From NCBI GenBank assembly GCA_036677365.1, contig JAVBWN010000035.1, forward strand, positions 1-43,674: a stretch of DNA of 43,674 nucleotides, given 5' to 3'. Made by a program: the position numbers. Shown here one piece after another: positions 27,001 to 43,674 of this stretch (its first letter is position 1; every line of letters starts with the position of its first letter). This stretch comes from Acholeplasma sp. GTDB lineage: Bacteria > Bacillota_I > Bacilli_A > Acholeplasmatales > UBA5453.

Positions 27001-30000
27001 CTACAACCAATGGTAGAGCAGACTTAACATCTGTTGTTCAAAGAATTTGGACATACTTTGATGCTTCCGGTAAATTACAAATGGTTGAAGACCAAATCTT
27101 CACATACTACATTTTTAATGATGGCACCGTTGAAGCTCCAGAATGGCGTTTAGCAACTGCTGAAGAAAAAACAGCCTATGACGCAGCAGATCCAAAACCT
27201 GTAACAACTAGAATTGCGCACGTTCGTATGAAGATCGATGCAACCGACCCTCAAGGTTACAAACTTGAACCAGTCAAATACATCGCTTGGACTAACGCTG
27301 ACGTAGATACTACAACCGAATTAGACAAAGAAAAATGGTCAACCATCGTTGCTGGCGACCCTAACTTTGTTACCATCCCTGCAGGCTGGACAACTGTCAG
27401 CTTTGGTACAAACGATAGAGGATCTCTAAATACAAAGACCACAGATTTCATTAAGACATTACCAGGATTATTGGCCAATGCTCAAACAGCTAACGCTGAA
27501 ATCGTGTATACACACCAAGCACCTACATTTACTGGTATCACCGCATTAGACGATGATAACACAACGCCGGGTGTCAATATCGTGGTTGATTATCAATCTG
27601 CTTTTGATCTTCCGCTCACTGTAGAAGCATCTTGGGTAAATATGTTCAATGCTCAAGGTAAGGTTCAAAACCTAACTGAAAAGTTGAACTATAAAGTTGA
27701 AATTTGGAATGAAACAGGCGAAACCTTATTACAAACCATCGATTTCACTTATGATTCAGTCGCTATGGCATACACCAAGAGTGCGAATGTCACAGCAGTA
27801 GACTCCTCCGTTTTCGGTGCGGGTTATAAAGCTAAGTTCATCGCTGAAACTTCTAAAGGCGACGAAACTGTCGTTCAAGCAGACATCGTTGTTGGTGTAA
27901 TGCCTCCGAAGTTTATGGGTGTTGTCAACAGATTCTCTGATGAAGGTCAATATGTCAACGTTATGCAAGGCATCACTGCAGATGACGGTTATGGCAATGA
28001 CATCACAAATACCATTCAAGTGACTTACCCAGCAGGATTCAACTTCTATGCTCCAAAAGCTGGCGTTTATCAAATTAACTTACAATTCACTCACCATGTA
28101 CACATTCCAGGTACACCAGATGCACCAGCAACTGTCACATTTAAAGGCAGCACATACAACGTTACTAAGACAAACGTTCAATTGACCAACATCGCGAACG
28201 ATATTTCCGTTTGGACCGATGTTACTACATTCAAGACCTCAACATTCTCATGGGGTTCTGCCGGTGTCATTATCGAAGTAGCTGGCGATGGTACTGTGAT
28301 TAGAACCATCAACAGAAGAACTTGGGACTTAGTTGACGTGAACGGTACAAACACACCTGCAAACGCATCCGGTATGTTTGATGCTTGGTTGGCTGGTCTA
28401 ACCCTTGAAGCAAACGGATACATCGTTGTTGTTGGTGTCAACAAAGCCACTGAATACGCATTAGCAAGAACCATCGTGTATGATGACCCAGTTTCTAAGA
28501 CTGAGTTTGTCGCTGGTATTCCTGATTTCGATACAGACATCGTGAAGACCGCTTCTTATACATTAACCATCGATGATAAGACTGCCCCTGAATTGGTTGT
28601 AGTTAATGAAAACTTCAAGTTTGAAGCTGGCGCATTCTCTACTGCTAACGCTGCAATTCTATCCAACGTTATCGCTATTGATAACCATGATAGCAGATCA
28701 CAAATCGTGATTTATGTTGCACAAAATGGCGGCTTAAATGTCAACAATCCTGGCACATATACTGTTGAAGTAGTTGCTGAAGACAGAGCTGGTAACGCAT
28801 CCAGTGTAACCTTCCAAATCGAAGTTGTTGCAAGACCTGTTACCCCTGAAATCGTCGATGAAAAGATCGATCAAAAATTAGATGATAAAGAACAAGAAAT
28901 CATCGATTATATCAATGAAAACACATTGACTCTTGAACAAATTCAAGACTTAATCGAAGGTAAAGAAGACCAAGTTGGTACCTCTATGGCAGCGACCATC
29001 GCAATCTCTCTAAGCTCCTCAGTTGTAGCGTTTGCTGCAGCATTCATCATCTTGAGAAAACGTCCATAAACGTAAAAAGTAAACCATTGAAAGTTCCTTT
29101 ATATAGGAACTTTCTTTTTTGGGTGTGAAAATAATTTTTTTAATGCGAAAATAACACGGTTGTCGAAAAAATCGAGTTAAAGACATAGTATAATGAAAGT
29201 GTATAAAAGTGCTTACATATATGTAAGGAAACTTTTAAAAACAATGAAAATCTCAATAGAGAAAGGGAGATAAAATGAGAAAAGTATTTTTAAGCATTTT
29301 ACTTTTAGTCTTCGCTATCGTGCTAGCAGCATGTGGCAATGGCGGTGGTGGCAACGAACCGGCTACAGCAAGCATTATTGGTGCGACAGACATCACAATC
29401 ACAGTAGGAGATACCTTTAATCCGCTCACTGGTGTGACAGCAACCGACAGTGTCGATGGTCCAATTACCAACATCACTGTGACAGGTACCGTCAATACCA
29501 ATGCACCAGCGGTTTACACACTCACATATAAAGTGACTGGTAGCGATGGTAAAGAAGTCATCGTCACACGCAAAGTCACGGTTCAAGGACAAGCGGTTGC
29601 ACCAACCAAAATCGTCATCATGCACGGGGCACCTTATGAAGTTGACCCATTCCATGCCGATTTTACCGGTACAAGACAACAAGAAAGACAAGCATTGCAA
29701 CGTCAAGTGGAATCTGAACTCAACGTCATCGTTGAATACAAACCTTACCCAGCCAACGCCCCATGGGGACCAGACCGTGTCAATGCAATCATTCAAGCGT
29801 CTGTTTCCAACAATCACTTAGCAGACATTTATTGGTCAACTTCTGACTGGATTCAGGCTTTAGCTAAAGCAGAAGCCATCGTACCGATTGATAAATATAT
29901 GGCTACTACAGGCAATAAGATTCATCAAAGCTATCAAAAAGTATCCACTTTCCAAGGACAACTTTGGGCATTCAATGAAGGCAATCTTACCGTAGATGCA

Positions 30001-42000: not shown

Positions 42001-43674
42001 CCGATTTCCCACTTTTGACGATGAGATTATTGAATGCTGCAGAAAACATGTATGCCCAACTATTTTATACGGGTGGGCTAGACTTGGTTGGACAAGATGT
42101 ATGGGAAAATCCATTGTTCTTAGCACTCATCAGTAATGTCGCTGCCTTACTCATGATGTTGCCATTACTCATCATGTATTTATTTGTTCAAAAACAATTT
42201 GTTGAATCGATTGAAAGAACCGGCATCGTCGGTTAGGAGTTCATATGTTCATAGAAAAACCCTTTTTCCAAAAAATCAATCAAATCAGTGACTGGGTATT
42301 GCGTTTGGTGATCATCAACACGTTGGTCATTCTGACGATTTTACCCATCATCACACTCTTTTTGGGGCTATCTACCGGATACAACACCTTAAGAGACCTT
42401 TGGAGAAAAAAGGAAAAAGGGTTATTCAGAACGTATGTTAAACACTTAAAGTACCGTATTTTTCACAAACTTTTGTTGGGATTGGTGCTGGGTGTGATTA
42501 TTTTGGTGGGCTATCTCAACATGACTTATTATGTTGAACTCATCGAAACCACACCAACCTTATTCTACCAAGCAGGCTATTACATCACATTGTTCTTTGT
42601 GGTGATGATGCTTTCTGTATCATTGTATTTGTTACCCATCGTCTATGCTAAGCCTCTTTTGGGCATCAAAGCATCCATCAAATTGGCTTTTTATGTGGCG
42701 GGTAAATATATCATAAGAACAGTATTCTTGTTACTCACACCAGCATTATTGTTATTCTTGTTGCTCACCTCATTCACTTCCATGATATTTGTCTTACTTG
42801 GTGTCAGTGGTTGGTTGATGGTGATGGTTTTAATCACCGATGTGGTGGTGGATTTGGTAGAGGAGATGAATCGTCGTGATTAAATTAGGCATTGAGCAAA
42901 TCGGTCTATATCGATCGCTATTTGAAGGTAAACGTGTGGGTTTAATCACAAACCCTACAGGTGTCAATCAACAGTTCAAATCGACGATTGACATTCTCCA
43001 TGAAGTATCCACGTTGGTAGCGCTATTTTCACCAGAACACGGGGTTAGAGGTAACGTTCAAGCAGGCGTTAAATTAGACCCGTATATCGACAAAGAAACC
43101 AACGCGATGGTGTATTCACTCTATGGTGAAACCCGAAAACCAACCGAAGCGATGATGTCTGATATCGATATACTTTGTTTCGATATTCAAGATGTGGGTG
43201 CGCGATTTTACACCTATATCTACACCATGGCATTCGCATTAGAAGCATGCAAGACCTATGGCAAGAAAATGGTTGTCTTCGACAGACCGAATCCCCTTGG
43301 TGGGGTAGTTGTGGAAGGTAATCTTTTAGATTTAAACTTTAGAAGTTTTGTCGGGTACTATTCCATCCCACAACGCTATGGTTTAACCATTGGCGAACTG
43401 GCGAATTACTTTAATGATTTAGGTGATATTCACGCCGACCTCACGGTCATCTCCATGGCGGGTTATCACAGAAGTATGCATTTTAAAGACACCCAGGTGC
43501 CCTTTGTATTACCATCACCGAACATCCCGACGCCTGAAACCATTTATGCGTATATGGCGACTTGTTATTTTGAAGGAACCAACCTATCCGAAGGCAGAGG
43601 TACGACCAAACCCTTTCAAATATTTGGTGCCCCATGGTTTAATAGCAAAGCGGTTCTAGAAGCTTTAAAACCAT

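What a model noticed while it worked through the whole genome (the two positions that open the first line are those of the whole stretch)
29275..42236. Nine-gene DUF5696 cassette is the shared core of four different glycan loci
A fixed cassette occurs four times in this genome (C35:29275-42236, C25:20442-32768, C27:28385-41129, C30:32920-46745). It holds a lipoprotein SBP, a membrane-anchored ~970-aa SBP, a permease pair, an NHL propeller, a Yip1-like membrane protein, DUF5696 and a second permease pair. Each copy sits among different CAZymes, and the same cassette recurs across wall-less and walled Firmicutes. I read it as a substrate-independent surface core for glycan capture and oligosaccharide import.
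Evidence so far: - Four paralogous copies with the same Pfam content. - A genome_contigs scan confirmed 587 relatives and kept 66 loci. - 40 of 41 loci with at least 21 kb hold all eight core parts, and 38 of 41 have two permease genes on each side of DUF5696. - In 299 sampled relatives, full-length DUF5696, the giant-SBP N-terminus and the NHL protein each match 52 genomes, with identical per-family tallies. - All parts pair up C25 with C27 and C30 with C35. - NHL-Yip1 fusions occur in 2 of 4 own copies and 10 of 56 public ORFs. - Flank CAZymes differ per locus here and in 20 other loci. - The non-permease parts are predicted to lie outside the cell. - RNA-library contigs from 4 runs in 2 studies cover the [...]
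(Added by a program. Inside this text positions count along the whole contig: contig position 1 is position 1 of the stretch shown here. "Call 12" and the like, gene names such as g00115 and contig names such as C1 are that model's own, and its searches are not shown. The text may have been shortened before it was handed on; [...] marks where a part breaks off. The agent that wrote the report below was given it as the finding of a first reader that could run no searches.)

Follow-up and report, generated by a model that had tools for sequence, protein, structure and literature searches.

The report
Conserved glycan-uptake cassette built around DUF5696
A fixed set of membrane genes occurs four times in this small wall-less bacterium, each copy among enzymes for a different sugar polymer (here bacterial cell wall): two sugar importers, two binding proteins, a propeller protein and an enzyme-like protein that appears to have lost its catalytic residues, a set no searched paper describes.

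Summary
Window 29275-42236 is a tightly packed operon with four copies in this 1.97-Mb genome. It encodes a lipoprotein SBP, a 968-aa membrane-anchored SBP, permease pair A, an NHL-TPR propeller, Yip1, DUF5696 and permease pair B, plus a MusI-like DUF624 gene.

Each copy sits in a different catabolic locus:
- C35: peptidoglycan/MurNAc.
- C25: beta-1,2-glucan.
- C27: beta-1,3-glucan.
- C30: HexNAc.

All eight core parts keep the same order in 20 of 20 hand-picked loci from 9 coded families. In 400 sampled genomes, DUF5696 (68) and the propeller (67) occur in the same genomes bar one.

New here:
- DUF5696 is a secreted or anchored remote homologue of GH129 glycosidases (hhalign 99%). Small residues replace the GH129 nucleophile and acid/base.
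- The C25 lipoprotein SBP is homologous to Chy400_4166, a solved binder of long and cyclic beta-1,2-glucan, and keeps its four key residues.
- Three loci pair an outside enzyme with a cytoplasmic one of the same family, which suggests import of long fragments.
- The host lacks PBPs, yet this copy feeds on peptidoglycan.

"Substrate-independent" fits the architecture only: the sequences sort by glycan type.

The parts
29089..29114 (+). Terminator-like hairpin closing the upstream transcription unit (803-aa surface Ig protein gene ends at 29069)
   Evidence: Consensus scan. RNA-library contigs of 3 runs from 2 studies end at 29066-29083 and resume at 29222-29315 with adapter-like loose ends. Weak hint only.
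29275..30837 (+). g1: lipoprotein (lipobox LAAC) with an N-terminal Ig-like domain and a divergent SBP-like body; likely the receptor of permease pair B
   Evidence: Pfam Bact_surface_Ig-like, E 3e-16. Lipobox and hydrophobic N-terminus. 25% identity over 437 aa to the C30 lipoprotein, which hits SBP_bac_8. hhalign to C25-type SBPs: probability 98.1%, E 1e-13. Only the Ig domain hits PDB. In C30 the homologue follows permease pair B directly.
30857..30881 (+). GC-rich hairpin in the 66-nt gap after the first SBP gene, with no U-run; possible mRNA stabiliser or attenuator
   Evidence: Fold dG -27.7 kcal/mol, z -4.06, 0 of 200 shuffles as stable. All other gaps in this copy are 12 nt or less.
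30904..33810 (+). g2: giant SBP (968 aa): N-terminal membrane anchor, CBM35-like beta modules, helical stretch, C-terminal CUT1-type SBP domain
   Evidence: Pfam SBP_bac_8/1 at residues 576-872. Hydrophobic residues 4-22. The profile of 21 homologues against PDB gives: 564-876 ~ Lin1841 (5ysb), E 2e-28; 296-395 ~ a stretch of 5x7g, E 2e-8 (I read it as CBM35, which fits the weak Pfam CBM_35 hits; the domain of that stretch was not checked); 391-515 ~ designed coiled coils.
33822..34754 (+). g3: permease A1 (MalF/UgpA-like)
   Evidence: BPD_transp_1. EAA-type loop EAGAIDGIRNRW...TLP. 64% identical to the C30 copy.
34747..35622 (+). g4: permease A2 (MalG/UgpE-like)
   Evidence: BPD_transp_1. UgpE-like, E 9e-29. 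EAA motif ESAKIDGA.
35634..37100 (+). g5: secreted six-bladed NHL propeller + TPR, with a C-terminal membrane helix
   Evidence: NHL and TPR hits. Signal-like N-terminus. C-terminal WIMGGTVTLAGLFVYI. The profile matches the PknD sensor propeller 1rwi at E 4e-29, and TPR at 361-415.
37081..37731 (+). g6: Yip1-type five-helix membrane protein. It overlaps g5 by 20 nt in another frame, and is fused to the propeller in C25 and C27.
   Evidence: Pfam Yip1, E 3e-12. Five hydrophobic segments. Fused in 11 and split in 9 of 20 loci. Four of the genome's five Yip1 matches lie in the cassettes.
37744..40308 (+). g7: DUF5696, an N-terminally anchored extracellular GH129-like protein without the GH129 catalytic pair
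   Evidence: Pfam E 4e-153. Hydrophobic residues 1-19. hhalign to GH129: probability 98.5-99% over about 470-490 columns. Catalytic columns replaced.
40310..41236 (+). g8: permease B1
   Evidence: BPD_transp_1. EAA motif EAAKIEGA.
41205..42236 (+). g9: permease B2 (start codon uncertain)
   Evidence: BPD_transp_1. EAA motif ESAQIDGA.
42245..42883 (+). g10: DUF624/MusI-like four-helix membrane protein, a tenth gene of the amino-sugar type of cassette
   Evidence: Pfam DUF624. NCBIfam MusI_fam 47 bits, below the cut-off of 160. Present after pair B in 7 of 7 sampled PG-type loci and before the giant SBP in C30.
42876..43673 (+). NamZ (exo-beta-N-acetylmuramidase), cut by the contig end. In the 95%-identical relative L010 it is followed by a GH3 NagZ-type enzyme, a BadF-type kinase and MurQ.
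   Evidence: Pfam NamZ_N, E 5e-83. L010 downstream genes. No signal peptide.
15161..29069 (+). Locus-specific upstream genes. RpiR/MurR-type regulator, AnmK, GHL10 (420 aa, cytoplasmic), GHL10 (1236 aa, secreted and anchored), beta-lactamase-fold protein (cytoplasmic), 1080-aa lipoprotein with Big_2, beta-helix and Amidase_2, and an 803-aa anchored Ig protein.
   Evidence: Pfam. NCBIfam AnmK 475 bits, above the cut-off of 435. Localisation from N-termini.

Best explanation
The stretch is the uptake core of a polysaccharide-utilisation locus of a type found in a group of small-genome Bacilli, wall-less and walled.

What it encodes:
- Two complete membrane halves of type I (CUT1) carbohydrate ABC importers, pairs A and B.
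- One receptor for each pair: the giant anchored SBP for A and, probably, the lipoprotein SBP for B.
- Three accessory membrane proteins: an outside NHL propeller + TPR tethered to a Yip1 helix bundle, a type-II-anchored GH129-like ectodomain (DUF5696) and, in this subtype, a MusI-like DUF624 protein.
- No ATPase. One of two MalK-like ATPases encoded elsewhere presumably drives it.

Proposed working order in this copy:
1. Anchored surface enzymes (GHL10, 1236 aa; Amidase_2 lipoprotein) cut foreign peptidoglycan.
2. The SBPs capture long fragments.
3. The importers bring them in.
4. Cytoplasmic NamZ, NagZ-type GH3, a beta-lactamase-fold protein I take for an amidase (by recalled analogy to AmiE), AnmK/kinase, MurQ, NagA and NagB finish the job.

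Shown by homology: importer identity, outside location, substrate class, block inheritance.

Inferred: DUF5696 and the propeller-Yip1 protein are non-catalytic subunits adapted to the substrate class. They would hold or feed the glycan chain, or organise the two importers, and the parts would form one complex.
For: Parts and topology.

EAA coupling loops are present in all four permease types of all four copies.

Operon packing: gaps are 12 nt or less, except after the first gene (9-85 nt in the four copies) and before the last gene of C30 (26 nt).

Contigs from 4 RNA-library runs in 2 studies cover the cassette. One contig runs 29315-43672.

Block inheritance: all nine part families pair the same way.

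Conserved order in 20 of 20 loci.

Co-occurrence is 67 of 68 genomes and 22 of 22 gene pairs. NHL-Yip1 is fused in 11 of 20 loci.

Substrate classes come from the flanks.

The C25 lipoprotein SBP matches Chy400_4166 at E 2e-48 and keeps W74, W308, D336 and K419. [quoted passage not shown]

Twin enzymes, one outside and one cytoplasmic, of the same family:
- GH144-like in C25.
- GH16 in C27.
- GHL10 in C35.

DUF5696 as a GH129-like protein:
- Collinear PDB profile hits to 8rzg/5opq at E 5e-11 and 5wzn at 1e-4.
- True GH129 proteins hit PF18952 at 62-76 bits.
- hhalign probability 98.5-99%.

Catalytic columns:
- The GH129 nucleophile column is S 49, A 18, G 10, N 4 of 89.
- The acid/base column is P 38, G 37, A 12 of 89.

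No acid is conserved at columns 646-649 in the PG clade.

An N-terminal hydrophobic segment is present in 85 of 89 DUF5696 proteins and 0 of 4 GH129 proteins.

Two MalK-like ATPase genes lie elsewhere in the genome.
Against: - No experiment and no fold or complex prediction was possible. Physical association is inferred from gene order and fusion only.
- DUF5696 keeps several near-invariant polar residues: D315 in PDGSG, D341, N736, E752, H809, N830.
- A D three residues after the aligned nucleophile column occurs in 72% of 89 family members, including the C30 paralogue.
- C35 itself has D646 in a YLD triplet identical to GH129.
- In the GH129-like enzyme DagB the acid/base is not at the NagBb position either (PMC5698469, passages), so loss of that residue is not decisive.
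- Sequence alignment of this strand is unreliable. phmmer puts the NagBb-type Asp opposite a Gly of DagB, although the paper equates it with Asp486.
- Sequences that sort by glycan type would also fit an enzyme.
- Chy400_4167, the second SBP of the Chloroflexus cluster, bound none of the polysaccharides tested (paper passage).
- The pairing of the lipoprotein SBP with pair B rests on the gene order in C30 alone.
- The lipoprotein SBP was detected in 15 of 20 loci only.
- The loci were chosen through DUF5696, and related genomes are not independent.
- RNA-library contigs do not prove transcription or a single transcript.
Confidence: 0.6

Rival explanations
1. DUF5696 is an active, membrane-anchored surface glycosidase or transglycosidase of a new GH family related to GH129/DagB. 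It would use catalytic residues other than those of NagBb. Each paralogue would trim its own glycan next to importer B, and the rest of the cassette would be an ordinary pair of importers.
For: - Full-length homology to GH129-like enzymes.
- Conserved acids D315, D341, D714 (85%) and E752 (94%), and D at column 649 in 72% of 89.
- The conserved N-domain block 309-341 lies about where DagB has Cys198, Asp202 and Lys208 of its active-site crevasse. This rests on my offset estimate and the paper passage, not on a residue-level alignment.
- DagB shows that catalytic residues move within this superfamily.
- Sequences sort by glycan type.
Against: - The substrates of the loci include alpha- and beta-linked neutral glycans, peptidoglycan and HexNAc polymers. 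One conserved mechanism for all of these is unlikely.
- Three of the four own loci already hold a recognised glycanase family both outside and inside the cell.
- The aligned nucleophile and acid/base columns are small residues.
- The column-649 Asp is missing in C35 (M), C25 (S) and C27 (S), and in all 8 PG-clade rows.
- GH129's dense set of invariant His, Asp and Trp residues is not kept.
Confidence: 0.28
2. The propeller-TPR-Yip1 protein and DUF5696 are sensors. They would detect the polymer outside and gate or regulate the importers or the locus regulator, and would take no part in transport.
For: - The NHL propeller is closest to the extracellular sensor domain of the kinase PknD (1rwi, E 4e-29).
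- It is tethered to a membrane domain with a cytoplasmic linker.
- Each locus has its own regulator: LacI, RpiR or GntR.
Against: - No kinase, HTH or other output domain was found in any of the parts.
- The genes sit inside the transporter operon with overlapping or near-touching stops and starts, not beside the regulator.
- There is one set per importer pair in 22 of 22 cases.
Confidence: 0.1
3. There is no joint machine. Two independent importers and unrelated surface genes travel together only because the whole locus is inherited vertically.
For: Orthologous loci in related genomes share everything, flanks included. Related genomes are not independent samples.
Against: - The flanks change completely between paralogous loci while the eight parts and their order do not, in 24 of 24 loci counting the four own copies.
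- Paralogues are 20-30% identical in the outside parts, so the order has survived long divergence.
- NHL-TPR at E<=1e-10 was found only in genomes with strong DUF5696.
- Fusion of two parts occurs in 11 of 20 loci.
Confidence: 0.05

Closest known systems
Chloroflexus aurantiacus Chy400_4165-4178 beta-1,2-glucan cluster and its SBP Chy400_4166 (PDB 22hh; FEBS J 2026, PMC13731917)
   Same: - The C25 lipoprotein SBP matches Chy400_4166 over its full length (E 2e-48) and keeps W74, W308, D336 and K419.
- The paper reports two SBP genes (4166, 4167), "two sets" of type I ABC transporter genes, one GH144 enzyme with a signal peptide and one without, a SOGP-like phosphorylase and a GH3. The C25 locus has the same set.
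- Six genes (4168-4173) lie between the SBPs and the first glucanase. That would fit four permeases + NHL-Yip1 + DUF5696.
   Different: - I could not see those six genes. The main text does not name them and the supplement figure could not be read, so the match of the whole cassette is an inference.
- The host is from another phylum and, as I recall (no call names it), another cell envelope.
- W446 of Chy400_4166 is not kept in the C25 protein.
- The paper does not mention DUF5696, NHL or Yip1.
GH129 alpha-N-acetylgalactosaminidase NagBb (5wzn) and the GH129-like 3,6-anhydro-D-galactosidase DagB/ZGAL_3152 (5opq, 8rzg)
   Same: Collinear homology of the N-terminal sandwich, the barrel and the C-terminal sandwich. 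True GH129 proteins score above the Pfam DUF5696 cut-off.
   Different: - The NagBb D435 and E478 columns are S/A/G and P/G/A in DUF5696.
- The DagB Glu517 position is likewise not acidic, by my reading.
- DUF5696 carries an N-terminal anchor in 85 of 89 proteins, against 0 of 4 for GH129.
- DUF5696 is always encoded inside a transporter operon.
- Pfam GH129 does not hit the window protein at E<=0.01.
Listeria innocua lin1839-1843 sophoro-oligosaccharide locus with the SBP LiSO-BP (Lin1841, 5ysb)
   Same: The SBP domain of the giant SBPs is closest to Lin1841 among solved structures: profile E 2e-28, C25 alone 5e-15. Both loci combine a CUT1 importer with cytoplasmic SOGP and GH3.
   Different: The Listeria locus has one importer, an SBP of normal size, and no DUF5696, NHL or Yip1 as far as the paper's text describes it. 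The ligand residues of Lin1841 were not checked here.
Bacillus subtilis MurNAc recycling operon murQ-murR-murP-amiE-nagZ-namZ (recalled, not checked in a call)
   Same: The C35 locus holds MurQ, an RpiR-type regulator, a beta-lactamase-fold protein, a GH3 NagZ-type enzyme and NamZ.
   Different: - The PTS transporter is replaced by the ten-gene ABC cassette plus kinases (AnmK, BadF-type).
- The exo-enzymes have no signal peptide here.
- The host makes no wall of its own.
SusC/SusD-centred polysaccharide utilisation loci of Bacteroidota and ABC-based Gram-positive PULs (recalled)
   Same: Works alike: a constant transporter core repeated several times per genome (3-7 here). Each copy has its own enzymes, regulator and large surface binding proteins.
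   Different: Transport would cross a single membrane by ABC importers. The four cassettes show no SusC/D-type hit in Pfam, though the genome was not searched for them. The accessory set (propeller-TPR-Yip1, GH129-like protein, giant SBP, second permease pair) is not part of described Gram-positive PULs in the papers I could search.
Accessory subunits of transporters: MusI of Corynebacterium MusEFGK2I, YknW (Yip1) of B. subtilis YknWXYZ, the beta-propeller AztD that hands zinc to the SBP AztC, and the glycosidase-like heavy chains rBAT/4F2hc of amino-acid transporters. All are recalled except AztD, which I saw as an abstract in the listing.
   Same: These are precedents for each odd part: a small membrane protein needed by a CUT1 importer, a Yip1 protein in an ABC system, a propeller that feeds an SBP, and a single-pass inactive glycosidase fold bound to a transporter.
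   Different: None is homologous in context. The MusI family score is below the cut-off (47 against 160). The others are analogies only and were not tested.

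Membership tests
Pfam DUF5696 (PF18952) | Score above the gathering cut-off over the whole model | tested here: met
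   511.5 bits against 25.6, model positions 8-612. All four paralogues score 408-512 bits.
GH129 glycoside hydrolases | Homologous three-domain fold (N-sandwich, barrel, C-sandwich) | tested here: met
   Sequence-profile level only. hhalign probability 98.5-99%, E 2e-15 to 6e-18, 468-487 columns. Three collinear PDB stretches. No 3D model could be made.
GH129 glycoside hydrolases | Catalytic nucleophile Asp (NagBb D435 in YLDVF) | tested here: inconclusive
   The aligned column is S 49, A 18, G 10, N 4 of 89. C35 itself has D646. A D three residues on is present in 72% of the family but is M in C35. Alignment of this strand is unreliable.
GH129 glycoside hydrolases | Acid/base Glu (NagBb E478 in SSEE) | tested here: not met
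   The aligned column is P 38, G 37, A 12 of 89. The next column is N in 63 of 89.
GH129 glycoside hydrolases | Pfam Glyco_hydro_129 (PF11308) match | tested here: not met
   No hit at E<=0.01 for the window protein. True GH129 proteins from related genomes do hit it.
Type I (CUT1) carbohydrate ABC importer | Two BPD_transp_1 membrane subunits with an EAA coupling loop | tested here: met
   Met twice over. Pairs A and B each have two such subunits. EAA loops are present in all four types in all four copies.
Type I (CUT1) carbohydrate ABC importer | Extracellular family-1 solute-binding protein | tested here: met
   g2 hits SBP_bac_8 at E 8e-21, and its profile hits sugar SBP structures. g1 qualifies only by remote homology.
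Type I (CUT1) carbohydrate ABC importer | MalK/MsmK-type ATPase | tested here: not met
   None lies in any of the four cassettes. Two MalK-like genes lie elsewhere, on C1 and C15. Use in trans is inferred.
Chy400_4166 group of beta-1,2-glucan-binding SBPs (applies to the C25 paralogue, not to g1 of the window) | Unit-G recognition residues W74, W308, D336, K419 | tested here: met
   All four are kept in the C25 lipoprotein SBP. Chain index + 20 equals the paper's numbering, checked on R303, E305 and Q312. W446 is not kept. The window's g1 has no detectable sequence match to 22hh.
Yip1 family (PF04893) | Pfam match and a five-helix bundle | tested here: met
   47.2 bits against 28.6. Five hydrophobic segments.
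MusI family (NF052431) | Score above the NCBIfam cut-off | tested here: not met
   47.1 bits against a cut-off of 160. Pfam DUF624 scores 24.6 against 24.2.
MurNAc/peptidoglycan catabolic locus (context of this copy) | AnmK, MurQ, NamZ, NagZ-type GH3, NagA and NagB present | tested here: met
   NCBIfam scores above the cut-off: AnmK 475>435, MurQ 396>168, GH3 208.4>207, NagA 310>226, NagB 275>237. NamZ by Pfam, E 5e-83. MurQ, GH3 and the kinase were seen in the 95%-identical relative L010, because the window ends inside NamZ.

The most novel reading that the evidence does not exclude
The cassette is a single-membrane counterpart of the Bacteroidota SusCD utilisome. It would be one multi-subunit machine that takes whole long glycan chains across the membrane: ten or more units, including cyclic beta-1,2-glucans and peptidoglycan strands. 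Two cooperating ABC importers would do the transport. A catalytically dead GH129-like ectodomain and a propeller would hold and thread the chain. The paired outside and inside enzymes of one family would be the signature of this selfish uptake.
Probability: 0.2. Interest if true: 0.9.

Novelty: new variant of a known kind. Interest (0 to 1): 0.72.

Why it matters
- It gives a simple genomic marker (DUF5696 next to an NHL-Yip1 gene between two permease pairs) for polysaccharide loci in small-genome Bacilli. No SusC/D-type marker was seen in these cassettes (not searched genome-wide), and these lineages are, as far as I recall, little studied for glycan use.
- The marker is common. It occurs in 68 of 399 sampled genomes at 3-7 copies per genome, and the four copies span about 2.7% of this genome.
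- It links the only characterised part, a 2026 structure of a long-chain beta-1,2-glucan binder, to a much larger conserved system that the authors did not describe.
- It assigns a 3,974-cluster family of unknown function to the GH101/GH129 superfamily. It also raises a testable question: is this a dead enzyme recruited as a transporter subunit?
- It indicates that a bacterium without PBPs or Mur ligases feeds on other cells' peptidoglycan. This bears on necromass turnover in sediment and sludge.

Tried and rejected
Tools that were not available:
- Complex prediction (DUF5696 with the Yip1 region) was not available.
- So no fold search and no binding test were done.

Searches that added nothing:
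- phmmer of DUF5696 against PDB found nothing. Only the profile did.
- The search for related loci with the four-paralogue alignment failed for lack of conserved stretches. The single protein gave 4 loci.
- The ESM Atlas returned only the protein's own family and unnamed clusters.
- The search for fused forms longer than about 1500 aa found none (weak evidence).
- The 1040-1270-aa forms have N-terminal extensions without Pfam hits, apart from one aBig_2 hit in the 968-aa P0005, and no fusion to other cassette parts.

Literature:
- DUF5696: 0 papers. 8RZG: 0 papers.
- Searches found no description of the cassette.
- The supplement of PMC13731917 with the cluster figure could not be read. It may show whether the Chloroflexus cluster holds the same parts.

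Weak or unusable signals:
- The promoter scan was uninformative: 28 sites against 41.9 expected.
- RNA contig depths were not used to rank genes, as the tool warns. No DNA run was laid beside them.

Ideas rejected:
- An export or biogenesis role. All four permease types are importer-type with SBPs, and the flanks are catabolic.
- Chance co-location. See the last rival explanation.

Technical:
- A first tree script gave no answer. A FastTree run replaced it, so support values are local SH-like only.

Full report
**1. What is in the window**

Between 29275 and 42883 ten ORFs lie on the + strand. Every gap is 12 nt or less, or an overlap, except the 66 nt after the first gene.

Pfam and NCBIfam and hydropathy give the following.

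| Gene | Coordinates | Content |
|---|---|---|
| g1 | 29275-30837 | Lipoprotein (LAAC) with an Ig-like domain |
| g2 | 30904-33810 | 968 aa, N-terminal anchor, SBP_bac_1/8 in residues 576-872 |
| g3, g4 | 33822-35622 | BPD_transp_1 permeases |
| g5 | 35634-37100 | Signal peptide, NHL, TPR, C-terminal helix |
| g6 | 37081-37731 | Yip1, five helices |
| g7 | 37744-40308 | N-terminal anchor, DUF5696 (E 4e-153) |
| g8, g9 | 40310-42236 | A second permease pair |
| g10 | 42245-42883 | DUF624, MusI-like below the cut-off |

NamZ follows and is cut by the contig end. All four permease types carry an EAA coupling loop.

g1 is SBP-like only by homology:
- It is 25% identical to the C30 lipoprotein, which hits SBP_bac_8.
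- hhalign to the C25-type SBPs gives probability 98%.
- Its only PDB sequence hits are to the Ig domain.

**2. Four copies**

tblastn and a Pfam search of the genome find exactly four DUF5696 genes. Each lies in the same gene set. The genome is 99.86% complete.

In C30 the lipoprotein SBP follows permease pair B, and the DUF624 gene comes first.

All nine part families pair C30 with C35 and C25 with C27. Within these pairs:
- Permease pair A is 53-64% identical.
- The lipoprotein SBP, DUF5696 and the NHL protein are only 25-34% identical.

NHL and Yip1 are one ORF in C25 and C27. In C30 they are split by a single in-frame TAA. In C35 they are split by a 20-nt overlap in another frame. The four cassettes span about 52.6 kb.

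**3. The flanks differ**

| Copy | Flanking genes | Calls |
|---|---|---|
| C35 | RpiR/MurR-type regulator, AnmK, two GHL10, a beta-lactamase-fold protein, an Amidase_2 lipoprotein, NamZ; NagA, NagB and NAGPA upstream. The 95%-identical relative L010 continues with a NagZ-type GH3, a BadF-type kinase and MurQ. | 4, 76, 112 (five equivalog scores above the cut-off) |
| C25 | LacI, two GH144-like, GH13, GH3, SOGP | 13 |
| C27 | A GH94-like protein, a protein with a partial GH149 hit, LacI, a CBM4_9 lipoprotein, three GH16 | 14, 112 |
| C30 | NagA, NagB, ROK, GntR, NAGPA, two GH20, DUF4127, NanE, GDSL | 15 |

**4. Recurrence elsewhere**

- A Pfam search of 401 genomes of the phylum sample scored 399. 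Of these, 68 had a strong DUF5696 match (best E <= 4e-55). The next class, at 1e-21 and weaker, proved to be GH129-like proteins.
- I picked 20 loci by hand, one per genome, from 9 coded families. I favoured long contigs.
- I scanned them with HMMs built from the four own paralogues. All 20 hold giant SBP, A1, A2, NHL, Yip1, DUF5696, B1 and B2 in that order.
- Two apparent gaps were ORF-filter artefacts. One giant SBP is split over two frames.
- The lipoprotein SBP was detected in 15 of 20 loci. DUF624 was found in all 7 PG-type loci. NHL-Yip1 is fused in 11 and split in 9.
- An NHL-TPR profile run over the same kind of sample found 67 of 400 genomes. Compared by eye, these are the same genomes except G061, which has only a 343-aa DUF5696 fragment.
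- In five genomes with every candidate scored, DUF5696 and NHL counts are 4, 4, 7, 4 and 3 for both. Each of the 22 NHL matches lies 1-3 kb upstream of a DUF5696 match on the same strand.

Flanks in the 20 loci:
- NamZ, GH3, kinase and MurQ: 7 loci. Two were scanned by Pfam (L044 in full; for L045 only an upstream Amidase_2 gene). The other five were assigned by like gene sizes and order.
- GH13.
- GH4/5/3/16/1.
- GH5/GH16/CBM6.
- NAGPA with GH3 and NagB (two loci; a third has NAGPA with a GDSL esterase).
- GH5/CE2.
- GH16/CBM4_9.
- GH3/5/30.
- GH130 (+PMI).
- SOGP + GH144.

**5. Hosts**

The nearest named records are a Bacillota MAG (95%), an Acholeplasmatales MAG (62%) and an Izemoplasmatales MAG (50%).

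- G000 and G184 have no PBP transpeptidase match and one weak Mur-ligase match each.
- G141, G243 and G381 have 2-3 PBPs and 5-7 Mur ligases.
- In the order of walled G243, 10 of 12 genomes carry 1-7 DUF5696 genes.

So the cassette occurs in both wall-less and walled hosts. The window's organism, which appears to make no wall, carries a peptidoglycan-catabolic locus.

**6. What DUF5696 is**

No paper in the searched library contains the name. The family is large: 3,974 representative clusters at E <= 1e-3.

Evidence for a GH129 relationship:
- A profile of 89 members hits three collinear stretches of DagB/ZGAL_3152 (8rzg, 5opq; E 5e-11). It also hits the start of the barrel of NagBb (5wzn; E 1e-4).
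- Proteins of about 610 aa from related genomes hit Pfam DUF5696, GH129, GH101 and DUF6259 together.
- One of them is a true GH129, with E 1e-176 to NagBb. That alignment shows D435 in YLDVF and E478 in SSEE.
- hhalign between the two families gives probability 98.5-99% over about 470-490 columns.

What happens at the catalytic positions:
- Mapped through that alignment, the nucleophile column is S/A/G/N in 81 of 89 DUF5696 proteins.
- The acid/base column is P/G/A in 87 of 89.
- Most of GH129's invariant His, Asp and Trp residues are not kept.
- An Asp three residues later is present in 72% of the family. It is M in C35, S in C25 and C27, D in C30, and absent in all 8 PG-clade rows.

Caveats:
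- C35 has its own D646 in a YLD triplet.
- DagB shows that the acid/base moves in this superfamily, and that an Asp from the N-domain of the partner monomer takes part (PMC5698469, passages).
- The strand is poorly alignable.
- DUF5696 keeps D315, D341, N736, E752, H809 and N830.

Location: DUF5696 has an N-terminal hydrophobic segment in 85 of 89 members. The GH129 proteins have it in 0 of 4.

My reading is a secreted, anchored GH129-like protein that has probably lost catalysis, at least in this copy. A fold model was not obtainable.

**7. The other parts**

- Giant SBP:
  - The SBP domain is nearest to the sophoro-oligosaccharide binder Lin1841.
  - Residues 296-395 resemble a stretch of 5x7g that I read as a CBM35.
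  - Residues 391-515 look like a helical coiled stretch.
- NHL part: nearest to the PknD sensor propeller.
- ATPases: two MalK-like genes lie outside the cassettes.

**8. Link to published biochemistry**

The C25 lipoprotein SBP matches PDB 22hh at E 2e-48. That entry is Chy400_4166 of Chloroflexus aurantiacus. [quoted passage not shown]

With the offset checked on R303, E305 and Q312, the key residues W74, W308, D336 and K419 are all kept. W446 is not.

The paper describes two SBP genes, two sets of type I ABC genes, and GH144 enzymes with and without a signal peptide in that cluster. Six unnamed genes lie between them, which fits the fused form of the cassette. I could not verify this.

**9. 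What is imported**

In three of the four own loci, one enzyme of a family is secreted or anchored and another of the same family has no signal peptide:
- GH144-like in C25.
- GH16 in C27.
- GHL10 in C35.

In C35, NamZ, GH3, the beta-lactamase-fold protein, the kinases and MurQ are all cytoplasmic. So the cargo must still contain MurNAc- and GlcNAc-ended chains and, if that protein is an AmiE-like amidase (recalled analogy), peptide stems. This points to uptake of long fragments.

**10. Sequence follows substrate**

A FastTree of 24 DUF5696 proteins groups them by flank type across genomes:
- PG: 8 rows, support 99.
- beta-1,2-glucan: 100.
- beta-1,3-glucan: 99.
- GH130: 96.
- HexNAc is not one group.

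Ten labels need 9 changes, the minimum possible. Shuffled labels need 15.2 on average, and 0 of 200 shuffles are as low.

Two deep clades appear:
- An amino-sugar clade with split NHL and Yip1, with DUF624 in its PG loci and in C30.
- A neutral-glycan clade with the fused form.

Related genomes share labels, so this shows old specialised paralogues, not repeated re-use of one core.

**11. Expression**

Contigs from four RNA-library runs in two studies cover the whole cassette. One runs 29315-43672. Contigs of three runs stop at 29066-29083 and restart at 29222-29315, next to a terminator-like hairpin at 29089-29114. The tool warns that DNA may be present in such libraries, so this is a weak hint of a separate unit.

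**12. Verdict**

The best reading is a conserved, multi-copy uptake core for long glycan fragments. It has two importers and three accessory membrane proteins, one of them a probably inactive GH129-like ectodomain.

It is a new variant of ABC-based polysaccharide loci. I found no description of it in print in the searches named above.

Noticed in passing
window 5901-43673: A bacterium with no PBP transpeptidase match and only one weak Mur-ligase match (genome 99.86% complete) carries a locus of about 38 kb for breaking down peptidoglycan. The pathway runs from surface amidase and GHL10 to MurQ, NagA and NagB. It presumably feeds on other cells' walls.
   Followed up: partly
window 11660-15047: EtfB, EtfA and a GlcD-like FAD oxidase sit inside the peptidoglycan locus. 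As I recall, MurQ releases D-lactate, so this may be an Etf-coupled D-lactate dehydrogenase that uses that product. Inference only.
   Followed up: no
window 26658-29069: An 803-aa protein with a signal peptide, an Ig-like domain and a C-terminal anchor lies directly upstream of the cassette. C27 (838-aa CBM4_9 lipoprotein), C30 (802-aa aBig_2/Ig protein), L052 and L063 (1343-1490-aa Ig proteins) have counterparts. These may be surface glycan-binding proteins specific to each locus.
   Followed up: partly
G000:C30:39824-39832 (L009 9824-9832): The NHL and Yip1 ORFs are in the same frame, separated only by TAA and one codon before the ATG. In C35 they overlap by 20 nt in different frames. The split is conserved in PG-type loci of other genomes, so it is not an assembly error.
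   Followed up: partly
L013 10001-10183: The end of a contig from a MAG labelled Rhizobium encodes 61 residues 100% identical to DUF5696 residues 316-376 of the window. This is probably a chimeric or contaminating contig.
   Followed up: no
L066 4270-6120, L067 4222-5952, L068 3722-5572, L069 4233-6056: Related walled genomes carry cytoplasmic true GH129 proteins (E 1e-176 to NagBb for L066). These also score above the Pfam DUF5696 cut-off and explain the weak class of matches in the genome survey.
   Followed up: yes
G254:C1:463962-465764, G239:C22:41254-43074, G177:C24:53691-55484, G008:C9:5665-7464: Four DUF5696 matches in other genomes contain one internal stop (TGA or TAG). They may be pseudogenes or sequencing errors. 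Not examined.
   Followed up: no
L054 12011-14788 and L046 11836-13164: Permease B1 carries long N-terminal extensions in some loci (925 aa and 442 aa, against about 300) without Pfam hits. The C30 copy (393 aa) also has a roughly 100-aa extension.
   Followed up: no
G000:C18:2717-3223: A fifth Yip1-domain ORF (420 aa) lies outside the cassettes.
   Followed up: no
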